Assembly: GCA_037142615.1 (NCBI GenBank)
Contig: JBAXAI010000009.1
Span: 32,001-96,000 of the forward strand
Direction: 5' to 3'
Origin: Spirochaetales bacterium
GTDB taxonomy: Bacteria > Spirochaetota > Spirochaetia > JABEVK01
Length of the DNA: 64,000 bases
Shown: positions 69 through 46,564 of the stretch, in pieces
How the letters are laid out: every line of letters starts with the position of its first letter
Position numbering within the stretch: position 1 is the stretch's first letter
The notes under the pieces: generated by a model
The model's database searches: none
Told to the model about the DNA's origin: nothing
What the model saw: only the letters and a program-made list of their open reading frames with translations
Program-made: the position numbers and the translations under genes

Positions 69-1307
69 ATGGATACCGTGCAAGTTCTTACCCTGGCAGG
101 GTTTTTGACAACCTTGGTTCTGATCACCGTTTGGAAAGAGGCCCGAACGGCGCTGGTGCTCTGCGGCGCCGTGTTTGTGGCGGTCTTGCACCCATCGACA
201 GCCTTGAGCCATATCGACATTGGGGTCTTGGGCCTGTGGCTGGGCATGCTTGTGCTGGCAGGGGCCCTGCGGCAAACGGGCCTGTCGCAGTACTTGGCGT
301 TGTGGTCAGCCAAGGCGGTGCGCGGAAATCCCGTGGCGATTTTGCTGGTCTACGCCGCGCTGGCACTGCTGTTCTCGGCCGTCGTGGGGAGTGTGCCCGC
401 GATGTTCCTGATGGTACCGGTTTCGCTTCTGGTAGCGGTTGAGCTCGACATTTCGCCGCTTCCCTTTGTGATCGGCGAAGCGGTGGCGGCGGGCTTGGGC
501 GGCGCCCTGACTCTGGTGGGTGACCCGGCCTCGATGGTGGTCGCCTCGACCTTCGGGGTGGACTACACCACTTACCTGAGTTCTGTCGCGCCGGTGCTGG
601 GCCTCACCGCTGTGTTCTTTTTTGGCACCCTCGTGCTCGTGTTTCGCTCCAGCCTCAAGGTGACCAATGAGCGGAAGGCCCGGATCCTTGACTTTGACGC
701 CAGCCGTTCCCGTCCTGATCAAGCGCTCCTGACACCGGTGCTCGGCGTGTTGGTGCTAACTCTGGTCGGACTGGTTGTCGCGGGCTGGTTTCAGGTGCCG
801 GTGGCGTTGGTGGCCCTCGGTGGTGCGGGACTCCTTTTGTTGCTGACCGGACCCAAGGATGCCTTGAAACATTTGGGAGAGGCCGACTGGAACGCCCTGG
901 TGTTCGTGGCGGGCCTGTTCCTGCTGGTGGGTGGCCTGCTCGACTCCGGCGTTCTTGGTGTGCTGTTGCCGGCCCTGGCCCTCTTCCCTGTTCCGCTGCT
1001 TTGGTTTTCGGGCCTTTTGGCGGCTCTGGTCGATAACGTGACGGCGGTCACGGTGCTGGCGCCCTTGGTCCAGTCGCTGGCAGGGGCCCCGGTGTCGCCT
1101 GTGCCGGTTTGGCTCCCGCTCGTCCTGGGTGGAGCCTTGGGAGGTTCGGCAACGCTCTTTGGGGCCTGGGCGAACATCGCCGCCGCTGGCATTGCGGGCA
1201 AGAGTGGCTACAAGCTGAAGTTCTGGACCTTCACCCGCTACACTCTGTTGCTGTCCATCGTCAACTTGCTGGTGGCGAGCGTGGTATTGCTGATTCCCGG
1301 CTTGTAG
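69..1307 (+). CDS. ArsB/NhaD (SLC13/ion transporter superfamily) permease
   Basis: 412 aa, highly hydrophobic. Motifs GGALTLVGDPAS, LVDNV and LGGSATLFGAWANI are typical of IT-superfamily permeases. Confidence 0.85.
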   Translation: MDTVQVLTLAGFLTTLVLITVWKEARTALVLCGAVFVAVLHPSTALSHIDIGVLGLWLGMLVLAGALRQTGLSQYLALWSAKAVRGNPVAILLVYAALALLFSAVVGSVPAMFLMVPVSLLVAVELDISPLPFVIGEAVAAGLGGALTLVGDPASMVVASTFGVDYTTYLSSVAPVLGLTAVFFFGTLVLVFRSSLKVTNERKARILDFDASRSRPDQALLTPVLGVLVLTLVGLVVAGWFQVPVALVALGGAGLLLLLTGPKDALKHLGEADWNALVFVAGLFLLVGGLLDSGVLGVLLPALALFPVPLLWFSGLLAALVDNVTAVTVLAPLVQSLAGAPVSPVPVWLPLVLGGALGGSATLFGAWANIAAAGIAGKSGYKLKFWTFTRYTLLLSIVNLLVASVVLLIPGL

Positions 1308-1972
1308 TCTGCAGGAACTTCGGCGGTCCACCGGTACAAGGTGTGAGCGCTAGCCAGGTATTTTTTTTCGAAAAGTGTCTCGGGCACTTCGGGGTTCCAG
1401 GTCTCGACGGCGCGTTCGACACCGGTCAGCACGGCAAACGCCTGCGCCATTTCGGCGGCGTAGACGGCCCAATTGGTGCGGAGCTCCCAAACGCCGCCGG
1501 TCTGCAGGGCAACCGGAAAGACCGGGTGAAAGGGCCAGCGCCGCAGTCGGTGCTCGGGCTTGGGCCACGGATTGGGGTAGTAGAAAGCTTGGTAGACAAA
1601 GGTCCAGCCTGCGGCTAGCGCCAGCGGCCAAAAGTCTTCCAAGTCGAGCCTCTGCAACACGTAACGGCCCCCGACTTCATTGCGGGGCAACAGGTGAAGG
1701 CCCAACCGGCGAGCAGACTTGTCGAGGCCCAGAACGAGCGCCTCGGGAAACCGGCGTGATAGCGCCAGGGTGCTCAGGCCCGTGCCGCAACCGGTGTCGA
1801 GCACCAGCGGCCCGCCCCAGGCCTCGACGACGGTTTCGAGTTCGCGGAAGGACGCAAGGTTGTGGGCGGCCACCGGACGCTTCCAAGGCTGGCTAGCGTG
1901 CTTGAGGACAGTTTCGTTGAGTCGGGGATGCGGCGCTGTTTGGCGGCTGGTCACCGGCGACGAAGGATTCAC
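1238..1972 (-). CDS. TrmB-like SAM-dependent methyltransferase
   Basis: SAM motif LDTGCGTG plus GLDKS, YPNPWPK, ELRTNW and TLFEKKY. GTG start. The 3' end overlaps the transporter by 70 nt. Confidence 0.8.
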   Translation of the reverse strand: MNPSSPVTSRQTAPHPRLNETVLKHASQPWKRPVAAHNLASFRELETVVEAWGGPLVLDTGCGTGLSTLALSRRFPEALVLGLDKSARRLGLHLLPRNEVGGRYVLQRLDLEDFWPLALAAGWTFVYQAFYYPNPWPKPEHRLRRWPFHPVFPVALQTGGVWELRTNWAVYAAEMAQAFAVLTGVERAVETWNPEVPETLFEKKYLASAHTLYRWTAEVPADYKPGISNTTLATSKLTMDSNRV

Positions 1973-2038
1973 ACGCTCAGTCTGGCGCCGTCAAGACCAA
2001 AAGGCAAGTCCAGACTATACTTCGAGGTGAGGAACCCC

Positions 2039-2533
2039 ATGCCCCTGTTTATTTTGCCTCTGGCTCTGCTCAGTCTGCTGACGTTTCAAGCCTCGACCCC
2101 GGGTCCTTCGGGAGAGGGGGCCTTGGCCGGCGACACCCTCATCCAACTGGCTGATGGCACCGCGAAGGCGGCCTCCGACTTGGTTGCGGGCGACCTTTTG
2201 CAAGGCTGGAAGAACGGAAAAGGCCCGGTTTCTGTGGTTCTTAAGGCTGTGGTGCGACTCAATGCCAACGCCTACCAGGCGGTGAGAACAGCGCAGGGAA
2301 CACTCCGAGCCAGCGGCAACCTCTGGGTTGCCACAGCAAGCGGCGGGTTGGTCAAACTATCGGCACTCGCCGGCCAGGGCCCCGCAGGCGACCTGGTGGG
2401 GCTGGCCACCAAGGGCACGCAGTCGATCCCGGTGCTCGGCAAACGGGAATACCCGTCCAACCTTCCGCTGTTCAACCTGGAACTCGCCGCACCGGGATTG
2501 TTCGTGGCCGGTGGCGTGCTCGTCCACGACTAG
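2039..2533 (+). CDS. Exported standalone Hint (intein-like) domain protein with degenerate catalytic residues
   Basis: ATG at 2039 follows GAGGTGAGGA. Hydrophobic signal-like N-terminus, block-A-like ALAGDTLIQLADG...DLVAGD, and block F/G-like LFNLELAAPGLFVAGGVLVHD-stop. Confidence 0.75.
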   Translation: MPLFILPLALLSLLTFQASTPGPSGEGALAGDTLIQLADGTAKAASDLVAGDLLQGWKNGKGPVSVVLKAVVRLNANAYQAVRTAQGTLRASGNLWVATASGGLVKLSALAGQGPAGDLVGLATKGTQSIPVLGKREYPSNLPLFNLELAAPGLFVAGGVLVHD

Positions 2534-2585
2534 AAGCGCGCTTTCGGACTAGCGCAAACGGTGGGTCCAGTGCGATTCTTGAAGA

Positions 2586-3959
2586 ATGCCGCTCGACAGC
2601 GTCACCGTCATCACTTTCTCGCTCGTGGTCGCGCTCGTCCTGAGCCTCTTTAGCTGGTCCTTGGTCTTGAGTCCACGGTCGCCCCGCTGGCGCGTGTCGT
2701 GGGCCTGCGCCAACACCAGCCTGACGCTTGGAGTATTCCTGTTGCTGGGTCAGGACTCGATCACCGCCTGGCTGTCGATCGTGTTGGCCAACGGGCTCAT
2801 CGTTGCTGGCTTCGTCCTGCTGGAAGCGGGTCTCCGCAGATTTGCGGAAAAGCCTTTCGAGCCCTGGTATCTGTGGGTCTTCTTCGGTGTGCTGTTCGCC
2901 GGTTTTGTCGTGTTGACGTTCGGTTGGTATTCCCTCGTGCTGCGGACCGTCTTCCATGCAGGGCTTGTGCTCTTAACCGTGGTCCGAATGCTTGTGCTGA
3001 CCAGAACCGGACTGGCACAGGATCGAAGGCACAACCCCTGGATGCTACGGTTTTTTGAGGGCGTACTCGTTGCAGTGGCCCTTTCGTACGTGGTTCGCCT
3101 TGGATTGGTCTTCGGTGAAAACTCGCGGACCGTGCTTGACCCCAGCAATTCCTTGGCCCTCATCTTTTTGTCGACAACCGTGGGAATGGTAGCGTGGACC
3201 ATGTGTCTGGTGGGCATCGAAGTGTACCGAGGTCAGCGTCTGGTCGAAGTCTCGCTGGCAACCCGCGACACGATGTTTGCACTCATTGCTCACGACCTAA
3301 AAGGACCCGTTGGAAACTTGGCCGCCTTGTTGGAGGTCGCAGGCGAAAAAGGGACCACCGACGAAGAAAAGGCGGCGACGTTGCGCGTGGCAGCCGAGGC
3401 GGCGCGTGAAAGCTACACCCTGCTCGACGACCTGCTGAGCTGGGCGCGTAGCCAGCGGGGTGATCTGGCGCTGACTCCGCAGGTCCTCTCGGTGGAAGGA
3501 CTGCTCCGGGAGTCAATGCACCCCCTGCAAGCCACGGCAAACCGCAAGAACCTGACCCTAACGGTGAAAACCGATCCCGACCTCGTGGTGTGGGGTGATG
3601 ACTCGACTCTCCAGACGGTGCTCAGGAACCTCGTTTCGAACGCCATCAAGTATTCGCCCCGAGGTGGCAGGGTCACGGTCGAGGCCTGGCAGACTGGACG
3701 CTTGGTGGTCGTCCGCGTCCTGGACACCGGGCCCGGTATGTCGGCTCGCGTTTTGGACGAACTTGCCAACGACCGTCAATTGACTCCGGCGCCTGGAAGC
3801 GAAGGTGAGCCGGGGACGGGCCTGGGCCTGAGGCTGTGTCAGGCGTTTGCCCTCGCCAACAAGGGGAGCCTCAAGTTCCGCGCGCTCCGGGAGAACCCGA
3901 ACTCGGGAACCGAGGTGATGCTCACGCTCCCCTTGCCAGACTCAACACTTCGAGACTAG
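2586..3959 (+). CDS. Sensor histidine kinase with multi-TM N-terminal domain
   Basis: H-box IAHDLKGP, N-box RNLVSNAIKYS, G1 DTGPGM and G2 GTGLGL. About 7 hydrophobic segments precede the kinase core. Confidence 0.9.
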   Translation: MPLDSVTVITFSLVVALVLSLFSWSLVLSPRSPRWRVSWACANTSLTLGVFLLLGQDSITAWLSIVLANGLIVAGFVLLEAGLRRFAEKPFEPWYLWVFFGVLFAGFVVLTFGWYSLVLRTVFHAGLVLLTVVRMLVLTRTGLAQDRRHNPWMLRFFEGVLVAVALSYVVRLGLVFGENSRTVLDPSNSLALIFLSTTVGMVAWTMCLVGIEVYRGQRLVEVSLATRDTMFALIAHDLKGPVGNLAALLEVAGEKGTTDEEKAATLRVAAEAARESYTLLDDLLSWARSQRGDLALTPQVLSVEGLLRESMHPLQATANRKNLTLTVKTDPDLVVWGDDSTLQTVLRNLVSNAIKYSPRGGRVTVEAWQTGRLVVVRVLDTGPGMSARVLDELANDRQLTPAPGSEGEPGTGLGLRLCQAFALANKGSLKFRALRENPNSGTEVMLTLPLPDSTLRD

Positions 3960-35786: not shown

Positions 35787-38700
35787 TCAGCGCGTTCGCA
35801 TGACGGCGCCGCCGAAGGTAAAGCCGCCGCCAAAAGCGCACAGCCCGACCACCTTGCCGGGCACCAACTCGGGGGTCAGCTCGAAAAGTGCCAACGGAAT
35901 CGAGTTCGACGACGTGTTTCCAAAGTGCCCGATGTTCGAGAAGATCCTGTCGGCCGTCAATTTTGTCTTTTGGCGCACGGCGTTCAAGATGCGCTGGTTG
36001 GCCTGGTGGGCCACAACGAGGTCGAGGTCGTGCGGCGCCATACCGCTGGCGTGGCAAGCTTGTTCCAGCAGGAGCACCATGTGCTTCACGGCTTCCAGGT
36101 ACACCTTGGGACCGTCCATGCTGATGAACTCTTCGGCTGAAAGCGGCACCTTGAGGCTGCTCCCGTCCTCGCCACGGCCCGAAAGTACCGGGCGGTCAAA
36201 CTCGGCCAGGATTTCGTGGGCCCTGTCGGCACCGACCACCAGGCTGGCGGTGGCGGCATCACCAAAGACGGGGGCCGTCTGCACGTCGGTGTGGTCGGTT
36301 CGTCGGCTGAGCACCTCGGTGGTAATCACCAAAACGCGCCCGTTGGGGTTGTAAGCCAAATGGTCCCACGCCGCCTGCAGGCTGTACAGGTAGCCGGAAC
36401 AGGCCGCGTTGATGTCGTTGACCTGAATGAGCGGTTCCACACTTCGGCCCCTGGTCAATTCGGCCAGAACCAGACAAGCCATCGAGGGCGTGAAACTGGC
36501 GGGGGTCCCCGTGGTGCAAAAAACCGCTGTCAGGTCCTCGGGCGCGAGTTTGTGGGCGTCGAGGAGTTCGCGGCTGGCGCGGACCGCCAGGCTGAGCGCT
36601 GTTTCGTCGTCGGTGGCCCACTGGCGCGTATGAATGCCGATGCGCTTCACGATGCCGGCGGGGGTCCAGTCGGGGCAAAGGGCCGCGATCTCTTCGTTGG
36701 TCACGGTACGCGAACCGGGGGCGATGCGGATGCCGGCCACACCAACCAGCGGTGCGCGGGCGCTGCGGTGCGTCGGCTGGGACTGCGCCCCGGTGTCGAG
36801 CCAAACGATGTGCGGGGTCCCGGGGTTCTCGAGCGTGATCGGCTTCTTTGAAACGCGGGCCGAGCCGGTGGCCACTTTGAGCAAGGGTGTGCCCACCTTC
36901 ACCTGCTCACCGACGGGGACCAAGACCTCTGCGAGCGTACCTTCCAGCGGGCTCGAAAGGTCGAACGCGGCCTTGTCGGCCTCAAGCTCGGCCAGCTTCA
37001 GGCCCGGCGTGAGTTTCTGGCCCGGCTTTACCAACCATTCCAGCACGGTCACCGACTCATCCGAGGGACTGGAACCGACGGCCTCGACGAAGGCAAAGCC
37101 GGCCTCGATCTTCAGGTCGAGCTCCCAGGTCAGTTCGCCGCCAAACAGGTCGACGGCGGTGGTGAGGATTTTTTTGTACGACGGGAGCACTTCGAGCTGG
37201 TTGCCGAAGTTGCACGGCACGTAGGTGTCGGGGCGTGCCACACGCCGTATCTGCACCGGCACCCCGGCCTTTTCGGCGACGGTGGCAGCGATTTCACTCG
37301 CCATCGACGCCGAGTGAGAATCTTCCTGCGCGATGATCAGTCGGCCGGTCTTGCGCACCGACTCGAGCACCAGCGGCTCGTCCCAGGGTGAGAGCGAGCG
37401 CAAGTCGATCACGTCGCAGGGCTTGCCGGCGGCGGCCAGCGCGTCGGCAGCCTTGAGGCACAGGTTCAGCGTGTTGCCCCAGCCCACCAGCGTCAACTGA
37501 TCGCCATGCCGGTGCAAGCGCCCGCGGCCGATGGGAACCAAGTGCTGGCGGATGTCTTTGCTGGTGGCCTGCGTGCGGTCGTTGAGGCAGCTTTTCGGGT
37601 AAAAGAACACTGTCGGGCGCTTGGACTCGAAAGCGGCGTTGAGCAGGCCGGCCGCGTCGCCGGCGGTGGCTGGCAAAAAGACGTCGAGGCCGGGCGTGTG
37701 CGCGGCGATCGATTCCATGCTGCTGGCGTGGAACGGCCCCAACCCTGGCTTGTAGCCACCGCAACTGACCATCAGGATCATCGGCGCCTTCCAACCACCG
37801 TCGGTGCGCCAGTGCATCGAGCCCATTTCGGCGAAAATCTGGTTGTAGGCGATGGCAAAGAAGTCGGCAAACTGCAAAAAACCGACGGGGTGACGACCGG
37901 CCAGGGCCTGCCCCACGCTGACGCCCACAATGGTTGACTCGGCCAGCGGCGAGTTCTTCACGCGGCCGGGGAAGGCTTCGCTGAGTCCCTTGGTGACGCC
38001 GAACACGTCGCCTTTGGGGTCTTCGATGTCTTCGCCAAACAGGCTAACCGCCGGATCGGTTTCCAAGCGGTGGCGGAGCACTTCGCGCAGGGCTTCAAGC
38101 ATCGTGATCTGCTCGCCGCCCTCGACACCGGTGTTCTCCTCGGCCGGGTTGGTCAGGTGCGACGGCAAGTCGGCCTTAGCGGTATAGATTGGTTCGGGCT
38201 CGGCGCTGTCTTGGGCCCGAAGGGAGTCGGCCTGCACCTCGTCCTTCAGGCGCGCGCGCAGCTCGGCAAGCCGGTCCAGTGCGACACCGTTGTGCTCCAG
38301 CCAAGCCTCGAGGCGGGGCAGCGGGTCATCGCGGCGCCGGGTCTCTTCGATCTCTTCGAGCGAGCGGTAGCTTCGGTGGTCGTCGGCGTTGGTGTGGCTG
38401 TTGAGCCGGCTGACCTGAAAGATCACGATGGCAGGGCCCCGATGCTCGCGGACCCCTTCAACGGCCCGGCCGAAAGTCTCGTAGCTTGCCACGGGGTCGC
38501 GACCATCGACGCGCAAGAGCGGAAGCCCGTAGAACTCCTGGGCGTCGCCGCTGGGCCGACTGTAGAACGTCTGGCCCTTGGTCTTGGTGCTGATGGCCCA
38601 CGTATTGTCTTCCACCACAAAGAGTACTGGAAGATGCTCGCGCACAGCGTGGGCGATGGCCTCCAGCACCTCACCTTGCTGGGTGGTGCCGTCACCCAAC

Positions 38701-39122
38701 GCGCAAACCACCAGCGGTCGGCTGGGCTGCTCTTTGATCACGGAGGCGACGCCGACAGCCTGCAACGCGTTGTTGCCCACGGGCCCGACCAGACTGAGCA
38801 CTTTGAGCGCTGGGTCGCTGAGGTGCGCCGACATCTGGCGGCCCCGGCTGTGGCTGCCGTCCTTGCAAAACAAGCTCAGAAAGAACTGGTAAGGGCTGAT
38901 ACCGCGGTCGATCAGGAGCGCCTTGTCGCGGTAATGGCAGTGCAGGTAGTCGTCGGCAGTCAAATGGGGGTTCAGGAAGGCGATGTTTTCGTGGCCGGTT
39001 CCCGAAACATGGAAGAACGCTTCGCCGCGCTGGGTGTAGTCTTGCTCCAGGAGGTCGACCTCCCGAGACTTGACGATGCTTTCATAAATAGAAAGGAATC
39101 GCTCCACGGTGGGTTGTTGCAT
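35787..39122 (-). CDS. Fusion: 2-oxoacid dehydrogenase E1alpha + E1beta + lipoyl domain + FabH/KAS III
   Basis: TPP motif GDG...EDNTWAIST and HTNADD. E1beta motifs GEDI..GDVFGVT, SPLAE, FHA and IDLRSLSPWD. Lipoyl motif ELEADKA (K717). KAS III triad AACSG (C908), HQAN (H1039) and GNTSS (N1069). One uninterrupted 1111-aa ORF. Confidence 0.93.
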   Translation of the reverse strand: MQQPTVERFLSIYESIVKSREVDLLEQDYTQRGEAFFHVSGTGHENIAFLNPHLTADDYLHCHYRDKALLIDRGISPYQFFLSLFCKDGSHSRGRQMSAHLSDPALKVLSLVGPVGNNALQAVGVASVIKEQPSRPLVVCALGDGTTQQGEVLEAIAHAVREHLPVLFVVEDNTWAISTKTKGQTFYSRPSGDAQEFYGLPLLRVDGRDPVASYETFGRAVEGVREHRGPAIVIFQVSRLNSHTNADDHRSYRSLEEIEETRRRDDPLPRLEAWLEHNGVALDRLAELRARLKDEVQADSLRAQDSAEPEPIYTAKADLPSHLTNPAEENTGVEGGEQITMLEALREVLRHRLETDPAVSLFGEDIEDPKGDVFGVTKGLSEAFPGRVKNSPLAESTIVGVSVGQALAGRHPVGFLQFADFFAIAYNQIFAEMGSMHWRTDGGWKAPMILMVSCGGYKPGLGPFHASSMESIAAHTPGLDVFLPATAGDAAGLLNAAFESKRPTVFFYPKSCLNDRTQATSKDIRQHLVPIGRGRLHRHGDQLTLVGWGNTLNLCLKAADALAAAGKPCDVIDLRSLSPWDEPLVLESVRKTGRLIIAQEDSHSASMASEIAATVAEKAGVPVQIRRVARPDTYVPCNFGNQLEVLPSYKKILTTAVDLFGGELTWELDLKIEAGFAFVEAVGSSPSDESVTVLEWLVKPGQKLTPGLKLAELEADKAAFDLSSPLEGTLAEVLVPVGEQVKVGTPLLKVATGSARVSKKPITLENPGTPHIVWLDTGAQSQPTHRSARAPLVGVAGIRIAPGSRTVTNEEIAALCPDWTPAGIVKRIGIHTRQWATDDETALSLAVRASRELLDAHKLAPEDLTAVFCTTGTPASFTPSMACLVLAELTRGRSVEPLIQVNDINAACSGYLYSLQAAWDHLAYNPNGRVLVITTEVLSRRTDHTDVQTAPVFGDAATASLVVGADRAHEILAEFDRPVLSGRGEDGSSLKVPLSAEEFISMDGPKVYLEAVKHMVLLLEQACHASGMAPHDLDLVVAHQANQRILNAVRQKTKLTADRIFSNIGHFGNTSSNSIPLALFELTPELVPGKVVGLCAFGGGFTFGGAVMRTR

Positions 39123-39167
39123 GACGCAATAACGGTACGTTGGACACTCTAAAAAGTCAACAAACGC

Positions 39168-39488
39168 TTACGTCTGCAGGGGCTGGATGAACAATCTTTC
39201 ACCGTCGTAGAAGACCACTGCCTTGGGAGGACAGCCGAGCAGTTTCCAGTGGGAAGCGCCAAGCTGAAGGGTCTGATGGGGGCACTCGTTGAGAATATCG
39301 ACCTCGGCTGGGCTACGAGTTCCGGACTCGCCCTTGAGGTAGTCCTGGACACTGATTTCGCCACAAAGCTGGACTTCGTGCTTCACGCGCATCAGGCCGA
39401 GGTCAAAGCCGTCGTTGGGATGAAGGATCAGTTTCCCCTTGGGGATGTGCTGACTCGCCGAAACCTGCAGGGTCAACGTCTTCTTCAT
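39168..39488 (-). CDS. Hypothetical 106-aa protein
   Basis: AGGAGG RBS. It fills the gap between the lipid-kinase-family gene and the fusion gene. No family recognised. Confidence 0.7.
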   Translation of the reverse strand: MKKTLTLQVSASQHIPKGKLILHPNDGFDLGLMRVKHEVQLCGEISVQDYLKGESGTRSPAEVDILNECPHQTLQLGASHWKLLGCPPKAVVFYDGERLFIQPLQT

Positions 39489-39498
39489 GGGCCGCCTC

Positions 39499-40533
39499 CT
39501 AATGACTACGTGACAACGTCCTCAGACCGCTGGCCACGCGTTTCATCGTCAGGGGAAAATCCCCTGGTTCCAGCCAGAACTCCTCGCCATCGAGTTGCAG
39601 AGGAAGCCGCGCCGACTGGTGAACCGACAGCGAATCGCCCCGGGCAAACTCGATGCCGGGCAAGCCCCGGTGCGTCCCCCGGTAAATGGGTTCGCGGTAG
39701 CTGAGTTTGGTCAGCAGGTTCACCCGGTGGGCGAGCACGAGGTTGTCTTCGTCGGGCAAAATATGCTTTCCGGCCCCGTAGGTCCGGTGCCCGGAGGTCC
39801 CGAAGGCCACCAGCAGCAATTGGTCTTTCCACGCCGCCACCGGCTTGCCGTCTTGGGTCAGCTCGACGTCCATGACCACCATCTTGGTGGCCCACTCATA
39901 GAACAGCGTCGCCGCGTCGACCATGAGGCTGTACGTGTTGCCTGGCATCACTTTGCGGAAGCGATTGGTGAGAGACACCACCCAGGCGTCGAGACCGACA
40001 CTGCCGATGTTGAAGCTGTGGTGCAGACCCAACCGGGGCGCGCGTACCTCGAGCATGTCGAGCGGGCGCGGTTCAAAACCGGGGGCCTCGTCGCCCGAGA
40101 GCACGTCGAGACAAGTGTTCCAGTCGTCGGCGTCGGCAGCGTCGTTTCCTGTCCCCAAGGGCAGCCGGAAAAACAGGAGTTTGGCCTTTTCCTCGTCGGT
40201 CATGCCCAGGGCAGAAATCAAGGCGGCACGCGAGGTGCCGTCGCCGCCAGCCACGATGACAAGCTGAAGATCGGGACCCACGGGGTGCGCCACCATGGGT
40301 GGCAGTTCAGGGCTGGTCAGACGGATGCTGACGGTCACCTTTCGCCCCGGGGTTGCGACAACAGGCCGTTCTACCAAGCCCTGAATGAGGCGGCTGAGGC
40401 GACCTTTGTGGCGAAAGGCTCCAGCGTGCGGGTTCACCAGCAGGTCGATGTGCAACGACCGGTCGGGAAAAAGGCGGGTGGCGCGTAACCAGGCGCTGAA
40501 CAGGGCACTGAAAGTGGCGACTGAAATTTCCAT
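39499..40533 (-). CDS. Diacylglycerol/lipid kinase family protein (DAGK_cat)
   Basis: VNPHAG, AGGDGT, PLGTGND, NIGSVGLDA and QLDGE. Start estimated at ATG 40533. Confidence 0.85.
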   Translation of the reverse strand: MEISVATFSALFSAWLRATRLFPDRSLHIDLLVNPHAGAFRHKGRLSRLIQGLVERPVVATPGRKVTVSIRLTSPELPPMVAHPVGPDLQLVIVAGGDGTSRAALISALGMTDEEKAKLLFFRLPLGTGNDAADADDWNTCLDVLSGDEAPGFEPRPLDMLEVRAPRLGLHHSFNIGSVGLDAWVVSLTNRFRKVMPGNTYSLMVDAATLFYEWATKMVVMDVELTQDGKPVAAWKDQLLLVAFGTSGHRTYGAGKHILPDEDNLVLAHRVNLLTKLSYREPIYRGTHRGLPGIEFARGDSLSVHQSARLPLQLDGEEFWLEPGDFPLTMKRVASGLRTLSRSH

Positions 40534-40553
40534 CACCACGAATTGTCGGCCCT

Positions 40554-41903
40554 CTAGCCCGAAATTGCCAATCCGTATTCTTTGATCTTGTTGAACATGG
40601 TCCGCCGGGTGATGCCAAGCTCTTCGGCGGCCCTGGTCTGGTTGCCTTCCCACTTGAGCAGAGTTTCCTGGATGGCTTTGCGCTCCAGTTCCCTCAGGGT
40701 GCCACCGGCCACCGGTTCTGAGTCGGTCGCCTCGCCGGCTTCCAACAGGGGAAGTTCCAGGTCGGCCTCGGTGACGACTTCGCCTTCGGCAAAAATCAGC
40801 GCCCTTTCCAGCAGGTTTTCGAGCTCGCGGATGTTCCCCGGAAAGCTGTAGGCCCGCAGCCTCGCCATGGCGGCCCCGGTCAAACCCGAAACCTTCTTGC
40901 CCATGGCTTTGGACAACTTATCGAGCAAACGCGAGCACAGCCACGGCAGATCGTCGAGCCGGTCGCGCAGGGGCGGCAGCAAAATCGGCACCACGTTGAG
41001 GCGGTAGTACAGGTCCTCGCGGAAGCGGCCGGCCTTCACCTCGTCGGCGAGGTTGCGGTTGGTCGCGGCCAGAATGCGCGATTCCACCGGGATCGACACC
41101 GTGCCGCCGATGCGCTGGATCTTGCGTTCCTGCAGCACCCGCAGAAGCTTCACCTGCAGGGGCAACGGCATTTCACCGATCTCATCGAGGAACAGTGTGC
41201 CGCCCGAAGCGAGCTCGAAAAGGCCATTCTTGCGTTTGTCGGCGCCGGTGAACGAACCCTTTTCAAAACCAAACAGCTCGCTTTCCAAAAGGTTCTCGGG
41301 GATGCCACCGACATTGATGGCCAAGAAGGGCCCGCTGGCAAAGGCCGACTCGGTGTGGATGCGCCGCGCCAGCACTTCTTTGCCCGTGCCGCTTTCGCCG
41401 GTGATCAGGATCAGCGAGGTGGTCGGTGCCGCCTTTTTGACCAGCGCGTCGATGCGCACCCAGGCCGAGGACTGCGGACCAAGTCCACCGGCGGTGCGGC
41501 TGTCGGCTGGCTGCACTTGCACGCTGCGGGCAATTCGGTGGTCGCGGTGGGCTTCGAGGGCTTGCCTCAACCGGTAGTCGAGCTCGTCGGGATCAAAGGG
41601 TTTGGTGATGTAATCGCGGGCTCCGCGCTTCATGGCTTCGACCGCGTCGGCGATTTCGCCGTGGGCCGAGATCATCACAAAGGGCACATCAGGCCCTTCG
41701 GCTCGGCACCAGCTCAGCAGTTCCAGCCCATCCATGCCGGGCATTTTGAGGTCGGCAATGACGCCCGCGTAGGCCTCTTCTTGCAAACGGCGCTGGGCAG
41801 CCAGACCGTTTTCGGCGGCCTCGGCCTCCCAACCCGACGAGCGGAGCAGTTTGACCAGCGCTTCGCGGATGTTCTTCTCGTCGTCGGCGACCAGGATTTT
41901 CAC
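40554..41903 (-). CDS. sigma54-dependent response regulator (NtrC/AtoC/ZraR family)
   Basis: Receiver domain, GESGTGKE, ESELFG..KGSFTGA, LFLDEIG, FREDLYYRL, GNIREL and a Fis-type HTH. Confidence 0.95.
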   Translation of the reverse strand: MKILVADDEKNIREALVKLLRSSGWEAEAAENGLAAQRRLQEEAYAGVIADLKMPGMDGLELLSWCRAEGPDVPFVMISAHGEIADAVEAMKRGARDYITKPFDPDELDYRLRQALEAHRDHRIARSVQVQPADSRTAGGLGPQSSAWVRIDALVKKAAPTTSLILITGESGTGKEVLARRIHTESAFASGPFLAINVGGIPENLLESELFGFEKGSFTGADKRKNGLFELASGGTLFLDEIGEMPLPLQVKLLRVLQERKIQRIGGTVSIPVESRILAATNRNLADEVKAGRFREDLYYRLNVVPILLPPLRDRLDDLPWLCSRLLDKLSKAMGKKVSGLTGAAMARLRAYSFPGNIRELENLLERALIFAEGEVVTEADLELPLLEAGEATDSEPVAGGTLRELERKAIQETLLKWEGNQTRAAEELGITRRTMFNKIKEYGLAISG

Positions 41904-44265: not shown

Positions 44266-44282
44266 AGCAAACGCCGTGCCAG
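44266..44282 (-). promoter_or_regulatory. sigma54 (-24/-12) promoter
   Basis: Minus strand CTGGCACGGCGTTTGCT matches the consensus TGGCACG-N4-TTGCW, about 50 nt upstream of ATG 44217. Confidence 0.88.
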
Positions 44283-44396: not shown

Positions 44397-44993
44397 GTGC
44401 GAGTTCCCCTCCTGCCCGCCCGGGCCGAATTGACGGTGTCGAGGTCACGCTTTCTCGCCCTCATCGAAGGCATCGCTTCGGCCGAAGAGGCCCGAGCTCA
44501 CTTGAAGGCTCTCAAAGCCCAGCACGCCGATGCCAGCCATGTAGTCCACGCCTTTGTGCTCGGCGAGGGCAACTCCCGCAATTCCGGCTGCAGCGACGAC
44601 GGCGAACCCCCGGGTACCGCTGGGAGGCCCGTGCTCGATGTGTTGGCCGGCAGCGGAGGTTCGAATGCTTTTGTCGCCGTGGTCCGCTGGTTCGGCGGCA
44701 CCAAACTGGGCACAGGGGGGCTGGTGAAGGCTTACTCCGAGGCGACGCGGGCCGTGCTGGCCGTCACAGCCTGGACCACGCTGCGCGACCTGGTCTCGCT
44801 GGGCCTGGAACTCCCGTATGAGAGCCTGCGCCCGCTGAAAACGCTGTTGGAAGAGGCCGAAGCCCAGGATGTCGTCGAGGTGTTCGCCGAAACCGTCACC
44901 GTCACCGCACGGGTGCCCCGGGAACACGTTGAAACGCTGCAGGCCCGCACCCGTGACCTGACGCGAGGGCTAGAGTTCCGCAACCTCGGGTAG
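44397..44993 (+). CDS. YigZ/IMPACT family protein
   Basis: SRF, SDDGEPPGTAGRP and VVRWFGGTKLGTGGLVKAY. Confidence 0.92.
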   Translation: MRVPLLPARAELTVSRSRFLALIEGIASAEEARAHLKALKAQHADASHVVHAFVLGEGNSRNSGCSDDGEPPGTAGRPVLDVLAGSGGSNAFVAVVRWFGGTKLGTGGLVKAYSEATRAVLAVTAWTTLRDLVSLGLELPYESLRPLKTLLEEAEAQDVVEVFAETVTVTARVPREHVETLQARTRDLTRGLEFRNLG

Positions 44994-45962
44994 CCGACCC
45001 TTCTTCTGGATGACGTAGTAGAGGTACAGCTCGAGCAACATGCCGTGGTGTTCGCCCTTGAACTGCCGTAGCCTTTGGTCAAACTCCGAGGTCAGCACGA
45101 GGATGTTCTGGAGGTCACTCAGGTTGTAGTGGCGCGCACCGTTGCGCAACCCTGCCTGAGCCTTCTTTCCAAACACCTTGAGCTGGGCGAAGGCCTCTTC
45201 GGCGGGATTGCGCTCCATCAGTTTGACTTGAAACGCGAGCAGGTTCTTGAACTGCCATGTCAGCCCGCCAAGCAGGCCGATCCCTTCGGTCTCTTTCGAG
45301 GCGATCATTTTCTTGAGCACTTCGAGCGCCTTGGGAAACTGCGCCTCGGTGATCTTTTCAAACAGCGTGAAGACGTTTTCCTCGCGTGAATGGACCAGGT
45401 AGTGCTCGAGGTCGTCGAGGCTGATGGTGGCGCCGCGCTCGAAAAACGCCAGCAGCTTCTGGGCCTCCATGCGCAACTGGTCGGTACTGTTGTCGATCAT
45501 TTCGAGAAAGAACTCGGCCGCGTCGGTGGTCAAGCCCAAACCGATGTCCTTGAAATGGTGGATGAGCCAGCCTTTCTTCTCGTTTTCGAACATCTCCCAA
45601 AACACGTGCACCTGGTCTTTGGCCAGCACCCGGGTCAGAGTTTCGAGCTTGGTTTCGTCGCTGACCAGCACGAGGGTAGATTCCTCGGCCGGGTGCTTGA
45701 GGTAGCCCTTGATCAAGTCGAGGTCGGCTTTTTTGTAGTCCTCGACGCTGTTGACGACCACGAGCTTGTGCGCGCAAAACAGGTCGCCGTTCTGCAACAG
45801 TGACAAAATGTCGGTGAATGGCGCCTCAAACGCGTAGAACTTGTGCTGTTCGGGGGCCTCTTTGAACTGCTTGGTGAGCTTGTCGCGCAGGGCGTTCAGG
45901 TGTTCCTGACGACGACCGTGCTCGGGCCCCATCAGCAGGCATACCCGGTCCGAAGCGGCCAT
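44970..45962 (-). CDS. holA: DNA polymerase III subunit delta
   Basis: 330 aa with LLMGPE, DLF..KLVVV, EAQKL and ENVFTL. Downstream of ptsH/lexA as in spirochaete gene order. Confidence 0.8.
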   Translation of the reverse strand: MAASDRVCLLMGPEHGRRQEHLNALRDKLTKQFKEAPEQHKFYAFEAPFTDILSLLQNGDLFCAHKLVVVNSVEDYKKADLDLIKGYLKHPAEESTLVLVSDETKLETLTRVLAKDQVHVFWEMFENEKKGWLIHHFKDIGLGLTTDAAEFFLEMIDNSTDQLRMEAQKLLAFFERGATISLDDLEHYLVHSREENVFTLFEKITEAQFPKALEVLKKMIASKETEGIGLLGGLTWQFKNLLAFQVKLMERNPAEEAFAQLKVFGKKAQAGLRNGARHYNLSDLQNILVLTSEFDQRLRQFKGEHHGMLLELYLYYVIQKKGRLPEVAEL

Positions 45963-46564
45963 CAGTACTTCCGGATGACGGTGACGAGCTTGCCGAGAAT
46001 TCGCACACTCTGCGTGTAGATGGGGTTGTAAGCGGGGTTTTCGGCCTGAAGCTTGACCCGGGTGCGCTCCTGGAAGAAGCGTTTGAGCGTCACGGCGTCG
46101 TCGCCGGTCATCGCCACGACGATTTCACCGTTTTCGGCGGTCGGCTGGCTCTTGATGACGGCCAAATCGCCGTCGAGGATGCCTGCGCCGGTCATGCTGT
46201 CGCCCCGAACCCTGAGCGCGAAGTGGTTGCCACGGTCAAGAAAGTCTTGCGTCACCAGCAGGTTCCCCTCGAGGTTTTCTTCGGCCATGATAGGGATGCC
46301 CGCCGCGACGCGTCCCAAAATCGGTATCGAGATGACCGGGCTTTCGTCGTCGCCGTCTTGGATCACTTCGATCGACCGTGACCGGTTGCTGTTGCTGCGG
46401 ATGAGGCCCTTCTTGCTCAGTGCCTTGACGTGGTTGTAGGCGCCCATCACCGAAAGGTCAAAGTGGTCGGCGATCTCGCGGATGGTGGGAGGGTACTTGT
46501 TAAGCAGCAGAAACTCTTTGACGAAGTCGAGAACTTCTTCCTGCCGACGGGTCGCAGCCTTCAT
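45962..46564 (-). CDS. lexA: SOS repressor LexA
   Basis: YPPTIREIA HTH, cleavage site VAAGIP, catalytic Ser in GDSM and catalytic Lys in TLKR. Confidence 0.95.
   Translation of the reverse strand: MKAATRRQEEVLDFVKEFLLLNKYPPTIREIADHFDLSVMGAYNHVKALSKKGLIRSNSNRSRSIEVIQDGDDESPVISIPILGRVAAGIPIMAEENLEGNLLVTQDFLDRGNHFALRVRGDSMTGAGILDGDLAVIKSQPTAENGEIVVAMTGDDAVTLKRFFQERTRVKLQAENPAYNPIYTQSVRILGKLVTVIRKY

What the first reader, a model, noticed from the sequence alone, without database searches (positions are those of the whole stretch)
35787..39122. Single-chain E1alpha-E1beta-lipoyl-FabH enzyme: a possible CoA-independent fatty-acid priming machine
Seen: one 1111-aa ORF carries an intact TPP-binding E1alpha, an E1beta, a lipoyl domain (ELEADKA, K717) and a KAS III domain with a complete triad (C908, H1039, N1069). 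It has no E2 acyltransferase domain, and I found no E2 or E3 gene in the window. Established: 2-oxoacid dehydrogenases normally pass the acyl-lipoamide to CoA through the E2 catalytic domain, and FabH then uses acyl-CoA. The naphthyridinomycin/quinocarcin pathways use PDH-like E1/lipoyl proteins with a separate KAS III-like transacylase. Inference: FabH occupies the position of the E2 core, so the acyl group could pass from the lipoyl arm straight to the FabH cysteine. That would channel a 2-oxoacid, most plausibly branched-chain, into beta-ketoacyl-ACP without an acyl-CoA pool. No PKS/NRPS genes are nearby and a lipid-kinase-family gene lies two genes upstream, which favours membrane lipid metabolism. 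I know of no biochemical description of this four-domain architecture.
Basis: partly seen in the sequence, partly recalled or inferred. Interest (0 to 1): 0.9.

Follow-up and report, generated by a model that had tools for sequence, protein, structure and literature searches.

The report
Fused oxoacid decarboxylase–lipoyl–ketosynthase enzyme
One bacterial gene joins the first enzyme of a 2-oxoacid dehydrogenase and its lipoyl swinging arm to a fatty-acid-starting ketosynthase, so it may start fatty acid chains from 2-oxoacids without coenzyme A, which no experiment has yet tested.

Summary
Window 35787-39122, on the minus strand, is an intact 1111-aa ORF with E1alpha, E1beta, a lipoyl domain and a KAS III domain. 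It has no E2 catalytic, E3-binding or ACP domain. It is not an assembly artefact. 119 of the 120 best database clusters share the architecture. 55 species genomes from at least seven phyla encode it, and an independent metagenome contig spans all domain junctions. In 161 aligned members the catalytic and lipoyl residues are invariant or nearly so.

New here: the fused KAS domain keeps the triad and the ACP-docking arginine but has lost both residues that sandwich the adenine of CoA in FabH. Nine stand-alone KAS III genes from the same six genomes keep them. This favours direct transfer of the acyl group from the lipoyl arm to the ketosynthase cysteine.

Not supported: all six carrier genomes checked also have a canonical FabH and E2. 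The lipid-kinase neighbour is confined to close relatives, and no partner gene is conserved. The substrate is unknown. I found no published description in 10 library searches. Verdict: real, probably a new variant, untested biochemically.

The parts
35787..39122 (-). Whole ORF, 1111 aa plus stop (P0001): E1alpha-E1beta-lipoyl-KAS III fusion
   Evidence: conserved full length in 119 of the 120 best clusters
38190..39071 (-). E1alpha (ThDP/PP) domain, residues 18-311. ThDP motif GDG...DN is residues 143-173 (38604-38696). H243 (38394-38396) is equivalent to human BCKDH His291alpha.
   Evidence: Pfam E1_dh 3.5e-40. Alignment to 1dtw_A and 1um9_A. G143, G145 and N173 are 161/161. HTNADD is invariant in 90 rows.
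37191..38111 (-). E1beta (Pyr + C-terminal) domains, residues 338-644. E395 (37938-37940) = Glu59beta. F421 = Phe85beta. H465 (37728-37730) = His128beta of G. stearothermophilus E1p.
   Evidence: Pfam. Alignment to 1w85_B. Residue roles from PMC2663715 passages. Fold TM 0.91 to 1um9_B.
36867..37076 (-). Lipoyl domain, residues 683-752, with lipoyl-lysine K717 (36972-36974) in ELEADKA
   Evidence: Pfam Biotin_lipoyl 2.1e-13. K717 161/161, D716 154/161, A718 156/161.
36744..36866 (-). Lipoyl-to-KAS tether, residues 753-793. Length varies (37-93 aa in the family) and conservation is low.
   Evidence: mean pairwise identity 0.34. pLDDT below 50 at 777-789.
35790..36743 (-). KAS III (FabH-like) domain, residues 794-1111. 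C908 (36399-36401), H1039 (36006-36008), N1069 (35916-35918). R1044 (35991-35993) = E. coli FabH R249.
   Evidence: Pfam. Alignment to E. coli FabH. Fold TM 0.93 to 2ebd.
39499..40653 (-). DAGK_cat/YegS_C lipid-kinase-family gene upstream on the same strand. This is lineage-specific context and not shown to be a functional partner.
   Evidence: homologues adjacent only in L003 and L004
39168..39488 (-). 106-aa orphan ORF between the kinase and the fusion (context only)
   Evidence: no Pfam hit; one homologue, in L004 at 49.5% identity

Best explanation
The gene encodes a self-contained chain-initiation enzyme.

Step 1: the fused E1alpha-E1beta module uses ThDP to decarboxylate a 2-oxoacid. Its identity is unknown. 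A short branched-chain or straight-chain 2-oxoacid is my guess.
Step 2: E1 reductively acylates the enzyme's own lipoyl-lysine K717.
Step 3 (the new step, inferred): the S-acyl-dihydrolipoyl arm swings on its 37-93-residue tether into the former pantetheine tunnel of the fused KAS III domain and acylates C908. This replaces both the E2 transacylase and acyl-CoA.
Step 4: H1039 and N1069 decarboxylate malonyl-ACP, docked at R1044, and Claisen condensation gives a 3-oxoacyl-ACP that enters type II fatty acid synthesis.
Step 5: the dihydrolipoyl arm is re-oxidised in trans by one of the cell's free dihydrolipoyl dehydrogenases, as happens for the free lipoyl protein GcvH (established knowledge, recalled).

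Shown: the domains, the intact catalytic residues, family-wide conservation, and the loss of CoA-adenine contacts. Inferred: steps 3 to 5, the substrate and the product.
For: - All parts are intact and under selection. In 161 aligned full-length members (115 database clusters plus 46 locus translations, so some may be duplicates), K717, C908 and H1039 are 161/161. N1069 is 159/161. The ThDP-motif residues G143, G145 and N173 are 161/161.
- Mean pairwise identity by domain is E1alpha 0.62, E1beta 0.69, lipoyl 0.57 and KAS 0.53, against 0.34-0.43 in the linkers.
- The E1 residues needed specifically for reductive acylation of lipoate are present. These are the equivalents of His128beta, Glu59beta and His271alpha/His291alpha (roles from PMC2663715 passages, and the title of PDB 1ols). 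They are invariant in the 90-row alignment.
- The KAS domain keeps the condensation machinery, which a pure transacylase would not need. It also keeps R249 (161/161) and K257 as R or K (159/161).
- The KAS domain has lost W32 (0/161 Trp; D128, G14, E11, K6, R1). No Arg appears among the five commonest residues printed for position R151 (P83, Y21, F18, A12, V8 = 142 of 161). These two residues stack the CoA adenine in E. coli FabH (PMC4606726 passages).
- Within-genome control: 9 of 9 stand-alone KAS III genes from six carrier genomes keep T28 (per the realignment), W32 and R151. 6 of 6 fused KAS domains from the same genomes lack W32 and R151.
- No E2, PSBD or ACP domain lies in the protein.
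- No conserved partner gene is found among 103 neighbours of 27 loci. An ACP gene lies within 10 kb in only 1 of 57 sources. Both fit a self-sufficient enzyme that uses housekeeping ACP.
- The support functions exist in the genome: LipA next to a LipB/LplA-family gene and two Lpd genes above the cut-off.
- The AF2 model is confident (mean pLDDT 89.7) with a disordered tether.
- The fusion is found in independent assemblies.
Against: - There is no biochemical or genetic evidence of any kind. I know of no precedent for acyl transfer from lipoamide to a ketosynthase cysteine.
- All 6 carrier genomes checked have a canonical FabH and at least one E2. The enzyme is therefore not needed for bulk priming, and its physiological role is open.
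- There is no E3-binding domain, so re-oxidation in trans is an assumption.
- Two of the four basic residues of the E. coli ACP-docking patch are not kept: K214 becomes L, Q or V, and K256 becomes Q.
- NCBIfam FabH models score below their cut-offs: 226 against 249 bits and 190 against 292. The KAS domain is divergent and could have another acceptor or extender.
- Loss of W32 and R151 shows only that canonical CoA-nucleotide binding is gone. It does not show that lipoamide binds.
- The substrate cannot be read from the sequence.
Confidence: 0.5

Rival explanations
1. The KAS III domain acts only as a transacylase. It takes the acyl group from the lipoyl arm onto C908 and passes it to holo-ACP, or to CoA, without condensation. 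It would be a functional stand-in for the E2 catalytic domain, like the acyl-loading KAS III proteins of natural-product pathways.
For: KAS III occupies the E2 position, and there is no E2 domain. A KAS III (NapE/DinQ) is described as having acyl-unit-loading activity beside transketolase-like E1, lipoyl and ACP components in the naphthyridinomycin/dnacin clusters (PMC7570522 passages). E. coli FabH has a known acyl-CoA:ACP transacylase side activity (recalled).
Against: H1039 (161/161) and N1069 (159/161), which serve malonyl decarboxylation, are as conserved as C908. Dedicated KAS III-like acyltransferases often alter this pair (recalled). No dedicated ACP is encoded nearby, with one found in 1 of 57 sources.
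Confidence: 0.15
2. The fusion only brings consecutive pathway enzymes together. The E1-lipoyl part cooperates with a separate E2 and E3 of the cell to make acyl-CoA, and the KAS domain then uses that acyl-CoA like any FabH.
For: Every carrier genome checked has E2 and Lpd genes. The E1beta C-terminal domain, which binds the E2 peripheral-subunit-binding domain in related complexes, is intact (the title of PDB 1w85).
Against: The CoA-adenine-stacking residues W32 and R151 are missing from all 161 fused KAS domains but present in all 9 stand-alone KAS III genes of the same genomes. A lipoyl domain in cis would be redundant, because E2 cores carry their own. No E2 is a conserved neighbour.
Confidence: 0.15
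3. The enzyme makes a specialised product and not a fatty-acid primer. Examples would be a beta-keto acid, methyl ketone, pyrone or signal molecule, or a dicarboxylate intermediate such as 3-oxopimeloyl-ACP from 2-oxoadipate in the manner of BioZ. The extender could be malonyl-CoA or malonyl-ACP, or E1 could cleave an acyloin or a ketose and not a 2-oxoacid.
For: The enzyme is redundant with canonical FabH in all 6 genomes. It is patchily distributed: 9 of 401 sampled Spirochaetota genomes, plus scattered other phyla with some probable transfers. In the window's lineage it sits in a two-component/sigma-54-regulator string. An SDR lies directly downstream in L009, L015, L017 and L048. BioZ structures are among the fold and sequence hits.
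Against: There are no PKS/NRPS or tailoring genes, and no conserved accessory genes. The KAS domain scores higher against FabH (2ebd, 141 bits) than against BioZ (9j6e, 96 bits). The E1 is of the alpha/beta PDH/BCKDH class and not the E1o/E1a class that handles dicarboxylic 2-oxoacids. R249, the ACP-docking residue, is invariant.
Confidence: 0.18
4. The ORF is an assembly chimera or a decaying pseudogene.
For: One independent contig (run X2) lacks one base at 38966, inside a C5 run. One Spirochaetota genome (G337) holds only fragments with in-frame TGA stops.
Against: The frame is open for 1111 aa. The same architecture is seen in 119 of the 120 best clusters and in 55 species genomes. The X2 contig of 3103 nt has 0 substitutions and spans all three domain junctions, and X3 pieces from another study tile the gene. 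The catalytic residues are invariant.
Confidence: 0.01

Closest known systems
Heterotetrameric (alpha2beta2) E1 of 2-oxoacid dehydrogenase complexes, closest to Thermus thermophilus branched-chain 2-oxoacid dehydrogenase E1 (PDB 1um9); also G. stearothermophilus PDH E1 and human BCKDH E1
   Same: ThDP motif, Glu59beta, Phe85beta, His128beta and His271/291alpha equivalents, and the fold (1um9_B 192 bits, 1um9_A 129 bits, TM 0.91). It should therefore decarboxylate a 2-oxoacid and reductively acylate a lipoyl-lysine.
   Different: Alpha and beta are one chain, in a transketolase-like arrangement (TM 0.70 to human transketolase). The lipoyl domain is attached in cis to E1 and is not on an E2 core. 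There is no E2 catalytic domain and no peripheral-subunit-binding domain. NCBIfam E1 models all score below their cut-offs.
FabH / KAS III (E. coli FabH, Aquifex 2ebd)
   Same: Thiolase fold (TM 0.93), the Cys-His-Asn triad, the oxyanion-loop glycines, and R249 of the ACP-docking site.
   Different: It is fused behind a lipoyl domain. It lacks W32 and R151, which hold the CoA adenine. F87 is Thr in 150/161 members. It scores below the TIGR00747 and PRK09352 cut-offs. The proposed acyl donor is a protein-bound acyl-dihydrolipoamide and not acyl-CoA.
Naphthyridinomycin/quinocarcin/dnacin C2-unit system (NapB/NapD or QncN/QncL, NapC/QncM ACP, NapE/DinQ KAS III)
   Same: A ThDP E1/transketolase-like enzyme loads an acyl unit on a lipoyl group and delivers it to a carrier other than CoA. 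A KAS III protein is part of the gene set (PMC7570522 passages). The lipoyl intermediate and the E2-type transfer are recalled from Peng et al. 2012 PNAS, which is not held.
   Different: Those are separate proteins in an NRPS cluster with a dedicated ACP, and they use a ketose donor. Here everything except ACP is one chain. There is no NRPS or dedicated ACP nearby, and the KAS domain keeps a full condensing triad.
Corynebacterial OdhA-type fusions (an E1 fused to an E2 catalytic domain)
   Same: Precedent that dehydrogenase-complex components can be rearranged by fusion (bioRxiv 10.1101/2020.07.24.212647, seen only as a search listing and abstract start; details recalled).
   Different: OdhA carries an E2 catalytic domain and no lipoyl domain, and it still makes acyl-CoA. 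The present protein carries a lipoyl domain and a ketosynthase.

Membership tests
2-oxoacid dehydrogenase E1, alpha/beta class | ThDP-binding motif GDG-X(25-30)-N(N) in the alpha part | tested here: met
   G143-D-G...D172-N173. G143, G145 and N173 are 161/161.
2-oxoacid dehydrogenase E1, alpha/beta class | Catalytic Glu59beta, His128beta and His271alpha/His291alpha, the residues for cofactor activation and reductive acylation of lipoate | tested here: met
   E395, H465 and H243 align to them and are invariant in 90 rows. Roles from PMC2663715 passages.
2-oxoacid dehydrogenase E1, alpha/beta class | Score above curated NCBIfam cut-offs for PDH E1alpha/E1beta equivalogs | tested here: not met
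   TIGR03181 175.8 against 411 bits; PRK11892 198 against 454 bits
2-oxoacid dehydrogenase multienzyme complex (E1-E2-E3) | E2 catalytic (2-oxoacid_dh, PF00198) domain that passes the acyl group to CoA | tested here: not met
   Absent from the protein and from the window's contig
2-oxoacid dehydrogenase multienzyme complex (E1-E2-E3) | Peripheral-subunit (E3/E1)-binding domain | tested here: not met
   No E3_binding hit at E<=0.01. The tether is 41 aa and poorly conserved.
2-oxoacid dehydrogenase multienzyme complex (E1-E2-E3) | Lipoyl domain with lysine in a DKA motif | tested here: met
   ELEADKA, K717 161/161
2-oxoacid dehydrogenase multienzyme complex (E1-E2-E3) | The lipoyl-lysine is actually lipoylated, and E3 re-oxidises it | not testable with these tools
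   Only the genes are seen: LipA plus a LipB/LplA-family gene, and two Lpd genes elsewhere in the genome
FabH / KAS III | Cys-His-Asn catalytic triad on a thiolase fold | tested here: met
   C908 and H1039 161/161, N1069 159/161. TM 0.93 to 2ebd.
FabH / KAS III | Score above the curated FabH cut-off | tested here: not met
   TIGR00747 190.3 against 292.1 bits; PRK09352 226.3 against 249 bits. The genome's stand-alone FabH scores 356.9.
FabH / KAS III | Acyl-CoA primer site: adenine stacked between W32 and R151 | tested here: not met
   0/161 Trp at the W32 position, and no Arg among the five commonest residues printed for the R151 position, which cover 142 of 161 members. 9 of 9 stand-alone KAS III controls keep both.
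FabH / KAS III | ACP-docking arginine R249 | tested here: met
   R1044 161/161. Its role is recalled from Zhang et al. 2001, which I did not read here.
FabH / KAS III | Condensation with malonyl-ACP to give 3-oxoacyl-ACP | not testable with these tools
   Needs an enzyme assay
Nap/Qnc-type ThDP-lipoyl-ACP unit-loading system | Dedicated ACP and NRPS genes in the same cluster | tested here: not met
   An ACP-like gene lies within 10 kb in 1 of 57 sources. No NRPS-sized ORF is in the window. No such families appear in the neighbour tally.

The most novel reading that the evidence does not exclude
A lipoyl swinging arm delivers its acyl group directly to a ketosynthase active-site cysteine. That would make this a one-polypeptide enzyme, using a 2-oxoacid plus malonyl-ACP, that starts acyl chains with neither acyl-CoA nor an E2 core. 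It would be a previously undescribed acyl-donor chemistry for thiolase-fold condensing enzymes, and a third use of the lipoyl arm beside transfer to CoA and to ACP.
Probability: 0.5. Interest if true: 0.85.

Novelty: new variant of a known kind. Interest (0 to 1): 0.72.

Why it matters
If the proposed transfer is real, it changes a textbook rule. Acyl groups on lipoamide are thought to leave only through E2-type transacylases, and KAS III primers are thought to arrive only on CoA or ACP.

It would define a CoA-independent entry of 2-oxoacids, and so of amino-acid or glycolytic carbon, into fatty acid synthesis in free-living spirochaetes, planctomycetes, betaproteobacteria and others.

It would also give metabolic engineers a single portable gene for making branched, odd-chain or otherwise primed fatty acids without rebuilding a dehydrogenase complex.

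The hypothesis is directly testable with one recombinant protein. Cultured carriers exist: Marinobacter halodurans YJ-S3-2 and Xenococcus sp. PCC 7305 (record titles).

Tried and rejected
- **Lipid-kinase link.** The kinase, the 106-aa ORF and the VWA gene have homologues next to the fusion only in L003 and/or L004. I rejected them as family-wide partners.
- **Conserved operon.** ORF clustering over 56 loci and a Pfam tally of 103 neighbours gave only lineage synteny with housekeeping genes (aconitase, NeuB, SerS-like).
- **Split forms.** The 'shorter' search listed 120 hits, most on contigs of a few kb. The six I read from long contigs begin inside E1beta or inside the KAS domain, so they look like truncated gene calls. 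No natural split form is shown.
- **Longer forms.** None was found. The tool itself says this is weak evidence.
- **Replacement of FabH or E2.** Rejected.
- **Substrate specificity.** PMC2663715 gave no specificity-determining residues. The closest PDB and NCBIfam matches do not decide between pyruvate and branched-chain substrates. This is left open.
- **BioZ-like 2-oxoadipate route.** Considered and ranked low (see rivals).
- **Complex prediction.** KAS domain against lipoyl domain gave 'no answer', score 0.00. This is not evidence either way.
- **Expression.** No RNA holder is listed for this DNA. The one metatranscriptome laid (X24) had nothing on the stretch. This is no evidence on expression.
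- **Literature.** The library lacks most subscription journals, supplements were not opened, and Peng et al. 2012 could not be read.

Full report
**The object.** The finding's coordinates are exact, but the gene is on the minus strand. Translation gives an uninterrupted 1111-aa protein, P0001. Pfam places six domains in order:
- E1_dh, residues 18-311
- Transket_pyr, 338-513
- Transketolase_C, 532-644
- Biotin_lipoyl, 690-749
- ACP_syn_III, 903-972
- ACP_syn_III_C, 1023-1109

Nothing at E<=0.01 matches an E2 catalytic domain, an E3-binding domain or a carrier-protein domain. NCBIfam recognises the parts as PDH-type E1alpha and E1beta, a lipoyl segment and FabH. Every hit is below its curated cut-off, so no curated family covers the protein.

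**The gene is real and the family is large.**
- Of the 120 best 90%-identity clusters in the protein database, 119 carry the same six Pfam domains. Identity to the query ranges from 83% down to 54%, mostly over 96-100% of the query. Five shorter entries (876-962 aa) cover 79-86% of it. The exception is an 823-aa entry without the KAS part.
- A pattern scan of one genome per prokaryotic species returned 55 loci. Most are labelled Spirochaetota. Others are Planctomycetota (Pirellulaceae), Beta-, Alpha- and Gammaproteobacteria (including Marinobacter halodurans and a Thiotrichales isolate), the cyanobacterium Xenococcus sp. PCC 7305, Armatimonadota, Sumerlaeota and Bdellovibrionota.
- The scan uses six peptide patterns, so 55 is a lower bound.
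- In an even sample of the window's own phylum, 9 of 401 genomes, counting the window's, have a match that spans the E1beta-lipoyl-KAS junction. Seven show the full junction in an open frame of 1116-1157 aa. One (G215) proved to be a 1209-aa six-domain protein. One (G337) holds only fragments with in-frame TGA stops.
- A maximum-likelihood tree of 47 rows largely follows phyla. Exceptions include Marinobacter nested among Spirochaetaceae and two Armatimonadota-labelled bins nested in the window's clade.
- Contigs of an independent freshwater metagenome (X2) cover 36239-39342 in one 3103-nt piece with no substitutions, bridging all three domain junctions. That contig lacks one base at 38966, within a run of five C. 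Pieces from a third study (X3) tile most of the gene.

**All four modules are under selection.** I aligned 161 full-length members: 115 database clusters plus 46 locus translations, so some proteins may appear twice.
- K717, C908 and H1039 are invariant. N1069 is kept in 159 of 161.
- G143, G145 and N173 of the ThDP motif are invariant.
- Mean pairwise identity is 0.62 for E1alpha, 0.69 for E1beta, 0.57 for the lipoyl domain and 0.53 for the KAS domain. The three linkers score 0.34-0.43.
- The lipoyl-KAS tether varies from 37 to 93 residues, as expected for a flexible arm. The E1beta-lipoyl linker is nearly constant at 23-27 residues.

**E1 is equipped to acylate lipoate.** The closest solved E1 is the branched-chain 2-oxoacid dehydrogenase E1 of Thermus thermophilus (1um9: beta 192 bits, alpha 129 bits). 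G. stearothermophilus PDH E1 and human BCKDH E1 follow. Three alignments support an intact E1:
- Against 1w85_B, E395 falls on Glu59beta, F421 on Phe85beta and H465 on His128beta.
- Against human BCKDH, H243 falls on His291alpha.
- Passages of PMC2663715 assign Glu59beta to cofactor activation, and His128beta and His271alpha to the reductive acetylation of lipoate. The title of PDB entry 1ols says the same for His291alpha and His146beta'.

All of these residues are invariant in a 90-row alignment.

**The key new observation concerns the KAS domain.** I aligned the family with E. coli FabH, taken from the annotated K-12 record, and with the window genome's two stand-alone KAS III genes.
- Kept: the triad, the oxyanion-loop glycines, N247, and R249 (161/161). 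R249 is the arginine I recall as the main ACP-docking residue. K257 is R or K in 159 of 161.
- Lost: W32 is never tryptophan (D128, G14, E11, K6, R1). At R151 the five commonest residues are P83, Y21, F18, A12 and V8, and none is Arg.
- Passages of PMC4606726 state that in E. coli FabH-CoA complexes the adenine ring is stacked between Trp32 and Arg151.
- As a control I fetched the canonical FabH genes of five other carrier genomes. All 9 stand-alone KAS III genes from the six genomes keep T28 (per the realignment), W32 and R151. All 6 fused KAS domains from the same genomes lack W32 and R151.
- F87 is Thr in 150 of 161 members. I recall this as the residue that opens the acyl channel in M. tuberculosis FabH.

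The fused domain therefore looks like a condensing enzyme that still meets ACP but no longer holds a CoA nucleotide. That is the pattern expected if the primer arrives on the neighbouring lipoyl arm.

**Context.**
- In the window the gene lies in a same-strand string: histidine kinase, sigma-54 response regulator, DAGK/YegS-family lipid kinase, a 106-aa orphan ORF, the fusion, and a VWA protein.
- The kinase has a homologue next to the fusion in L003 and L004, the 106-aa ORF only in L004, and the VWA gene only in L003.
- Alkalispirochaeta-type loci instead have a divergent aconitase and housekeeping genes.
- A Pfam tally of 103 immediate neighbours from 27 diverse loci shows no family in more than 5 of them.
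- An ACP-like gene lies within 10 kb in only 1 of 57 sources.

The enzyme therefore has no conserved partner. This fits a self-sufficient module that uses housekeeping malonyl-ACP.

**The host is not missing the classical route.** The window genome (4.27 Mb, 96.7% complete) has:
- a FabH at 357 bits, above the cut-off, and a second KAS III;
- a complete PDH operon with E1alpha, E1beta, E2 and Lpd;
- a second cluster with a fused 819-aa E1alpha-beta, an E2 and an Lpd;
- LipA beside a LipB/LplA-family gene.

Five other carriers (three spirochaetes, Marinobacter and Xenococcus) all have a canonical FabH and at least one E2. The fusion is an accessory route. Its role could be a particular primer, a particular condition, or channelling.

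**Structure.** AlphaFold2 with the 90-row alignment gives mean pLDDT 89.7 and pTM 0.68. Only an E1beta active-site loop (457-463) and the tether (777-789) fall below 50. Foldseek matches the parts to 1um9_B (TM 0.91) and Aquifex FabH (TM 0.93). It matches the fused E1 to single-chain human transketolase (TM 0.70).

**Mechanism proposed.**
1. The enzyme decarboxylates a 2-oxoacid.
2. It loads the acyl group on its own lipoyl-K717.
3. It passes the acyl group to C908.
4. It condenses it with malonyl-ACP.
5. It is reset by a free Lpd.

Steps 1 and 2 rest on conserved residues of known function. Step 4 rests on the conserved triad and R249. Steps 3 and 5 are inference. The substrate is not determined.

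Rivals are detailed in their own section:
- a transacylase-only KAS domain;
- mere co-localisation with use of acyl-CoA;
- a specialised, non-fatty-acid product.

**Comparison with known systems.** The enzyme works like a 2-oxoacid dehydrogenase whose E2 core has been replaced by FabH. It fails defining features of both families: there is no E2 or PSBD, the canonical primer site is gone, and scores are below the curated cut-offs.

The nearest described logic is the naphthyridinomycin/quinocarcin C2-unit system. There, a ThDP enzyme and a lipoyl group deliver an acyl unit to an ACP and not to CoA, and a KAS III gene (NapE/DinQ) sits in the cluster (PMC7570522 passages). That system is multi-protein, NRPS-linked and has its own ACP. 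I could not read the primary paper.

**Novelty and caveats.** The library searches I ran found no description of this fusion. The library omits most subscription journals, and I opened no supplements. I rate this a new variant of a known kind, with high but unproven mechanistic interest.

Noticed in passing
window 44266-44281 (minus strand): An exact match to the sigma-54 promoter consensus TGGCAC-N5-TTGCW lies upstream of the same-strand string of histidine kinase, sigma-54 response regulator, lipid kinase, 106-aa ORF, fusion and VWA gene. With up to one mismatch the window has 4 matches against 2.5 expected, so only the exact hit is notable.
   Followed up: partly
window 39168-39488 (minus strand): A 106-aa ORF sits between the lipid kinase and the fusion. 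It has no Pfam hit and only one homologue among the 56 loci compared (L004, 49.5% identity).
   Followed up: partly
L070 (G000:C11:13500-20500), ORF 864-3323 minus: The same genome has a second single-chain E1alpha-E1beta (819 aa). It is followed by a normal E2 (492 aa) and an Lpd, so fusion of alpha and beta also occurs in an otherwise classical complex.
   Followed up: partly
L009 7487-8638, L015 13399-14358, L017 14375-15184, L048 9550-10356: A classical short-chain dehydrogenase/reductase lies directly downstream of the fusion on the same strand, in three spirochaete loci and in the cyanobacterium Xenococcus. It may be a ketoreductase partner or a coincidence, since SDRs are very common.
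   Followed up: partly
G337:C1:814572-815494 and 1147349-1148200: One Spirochaetota genome holds only pieces of the junction region with in-frame TGA stops, which looks like a decayed copy.
   Followed up: no
window 38966: The independent X2 contig lacks one base inside a run of five C (minus strand), early in the E1alpha part. This is a low-depth contig error or a frameshift variant in that population.
   Followed up: partly
L039 (Marinobacter halodurans), L005 and L007 (Armatimonadota-labelled bins): In the family tree Marinobacter nests among Spirochaetaceae. The two Armatimonadota bins nest inside the window's Spirochaetales clade at 68-70% identity. The causes could be gene transfer or mis-binned contigs.
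   Followed up: partly
L073 9039-9785 (minus), genome G215: A PlsC-type glycerolipid acyltransferase (PF01553) lies two genes upstream of the 1209-aa fusion in this spirochaete. Two of the 103 tallied neighbours elsewhere belong to the FeeM N-acyl amino acid synthase family.
   Followed up: no
window 44970-46564 (minus strand): A LexA-type repressor (Peptidase_S24 + LexA_DNA_bind) is immediately followed by a gene with weak DNA polymerase III delta-subunit domains. They lie between two sigma-54 two-component pairs.
   Followed up: no
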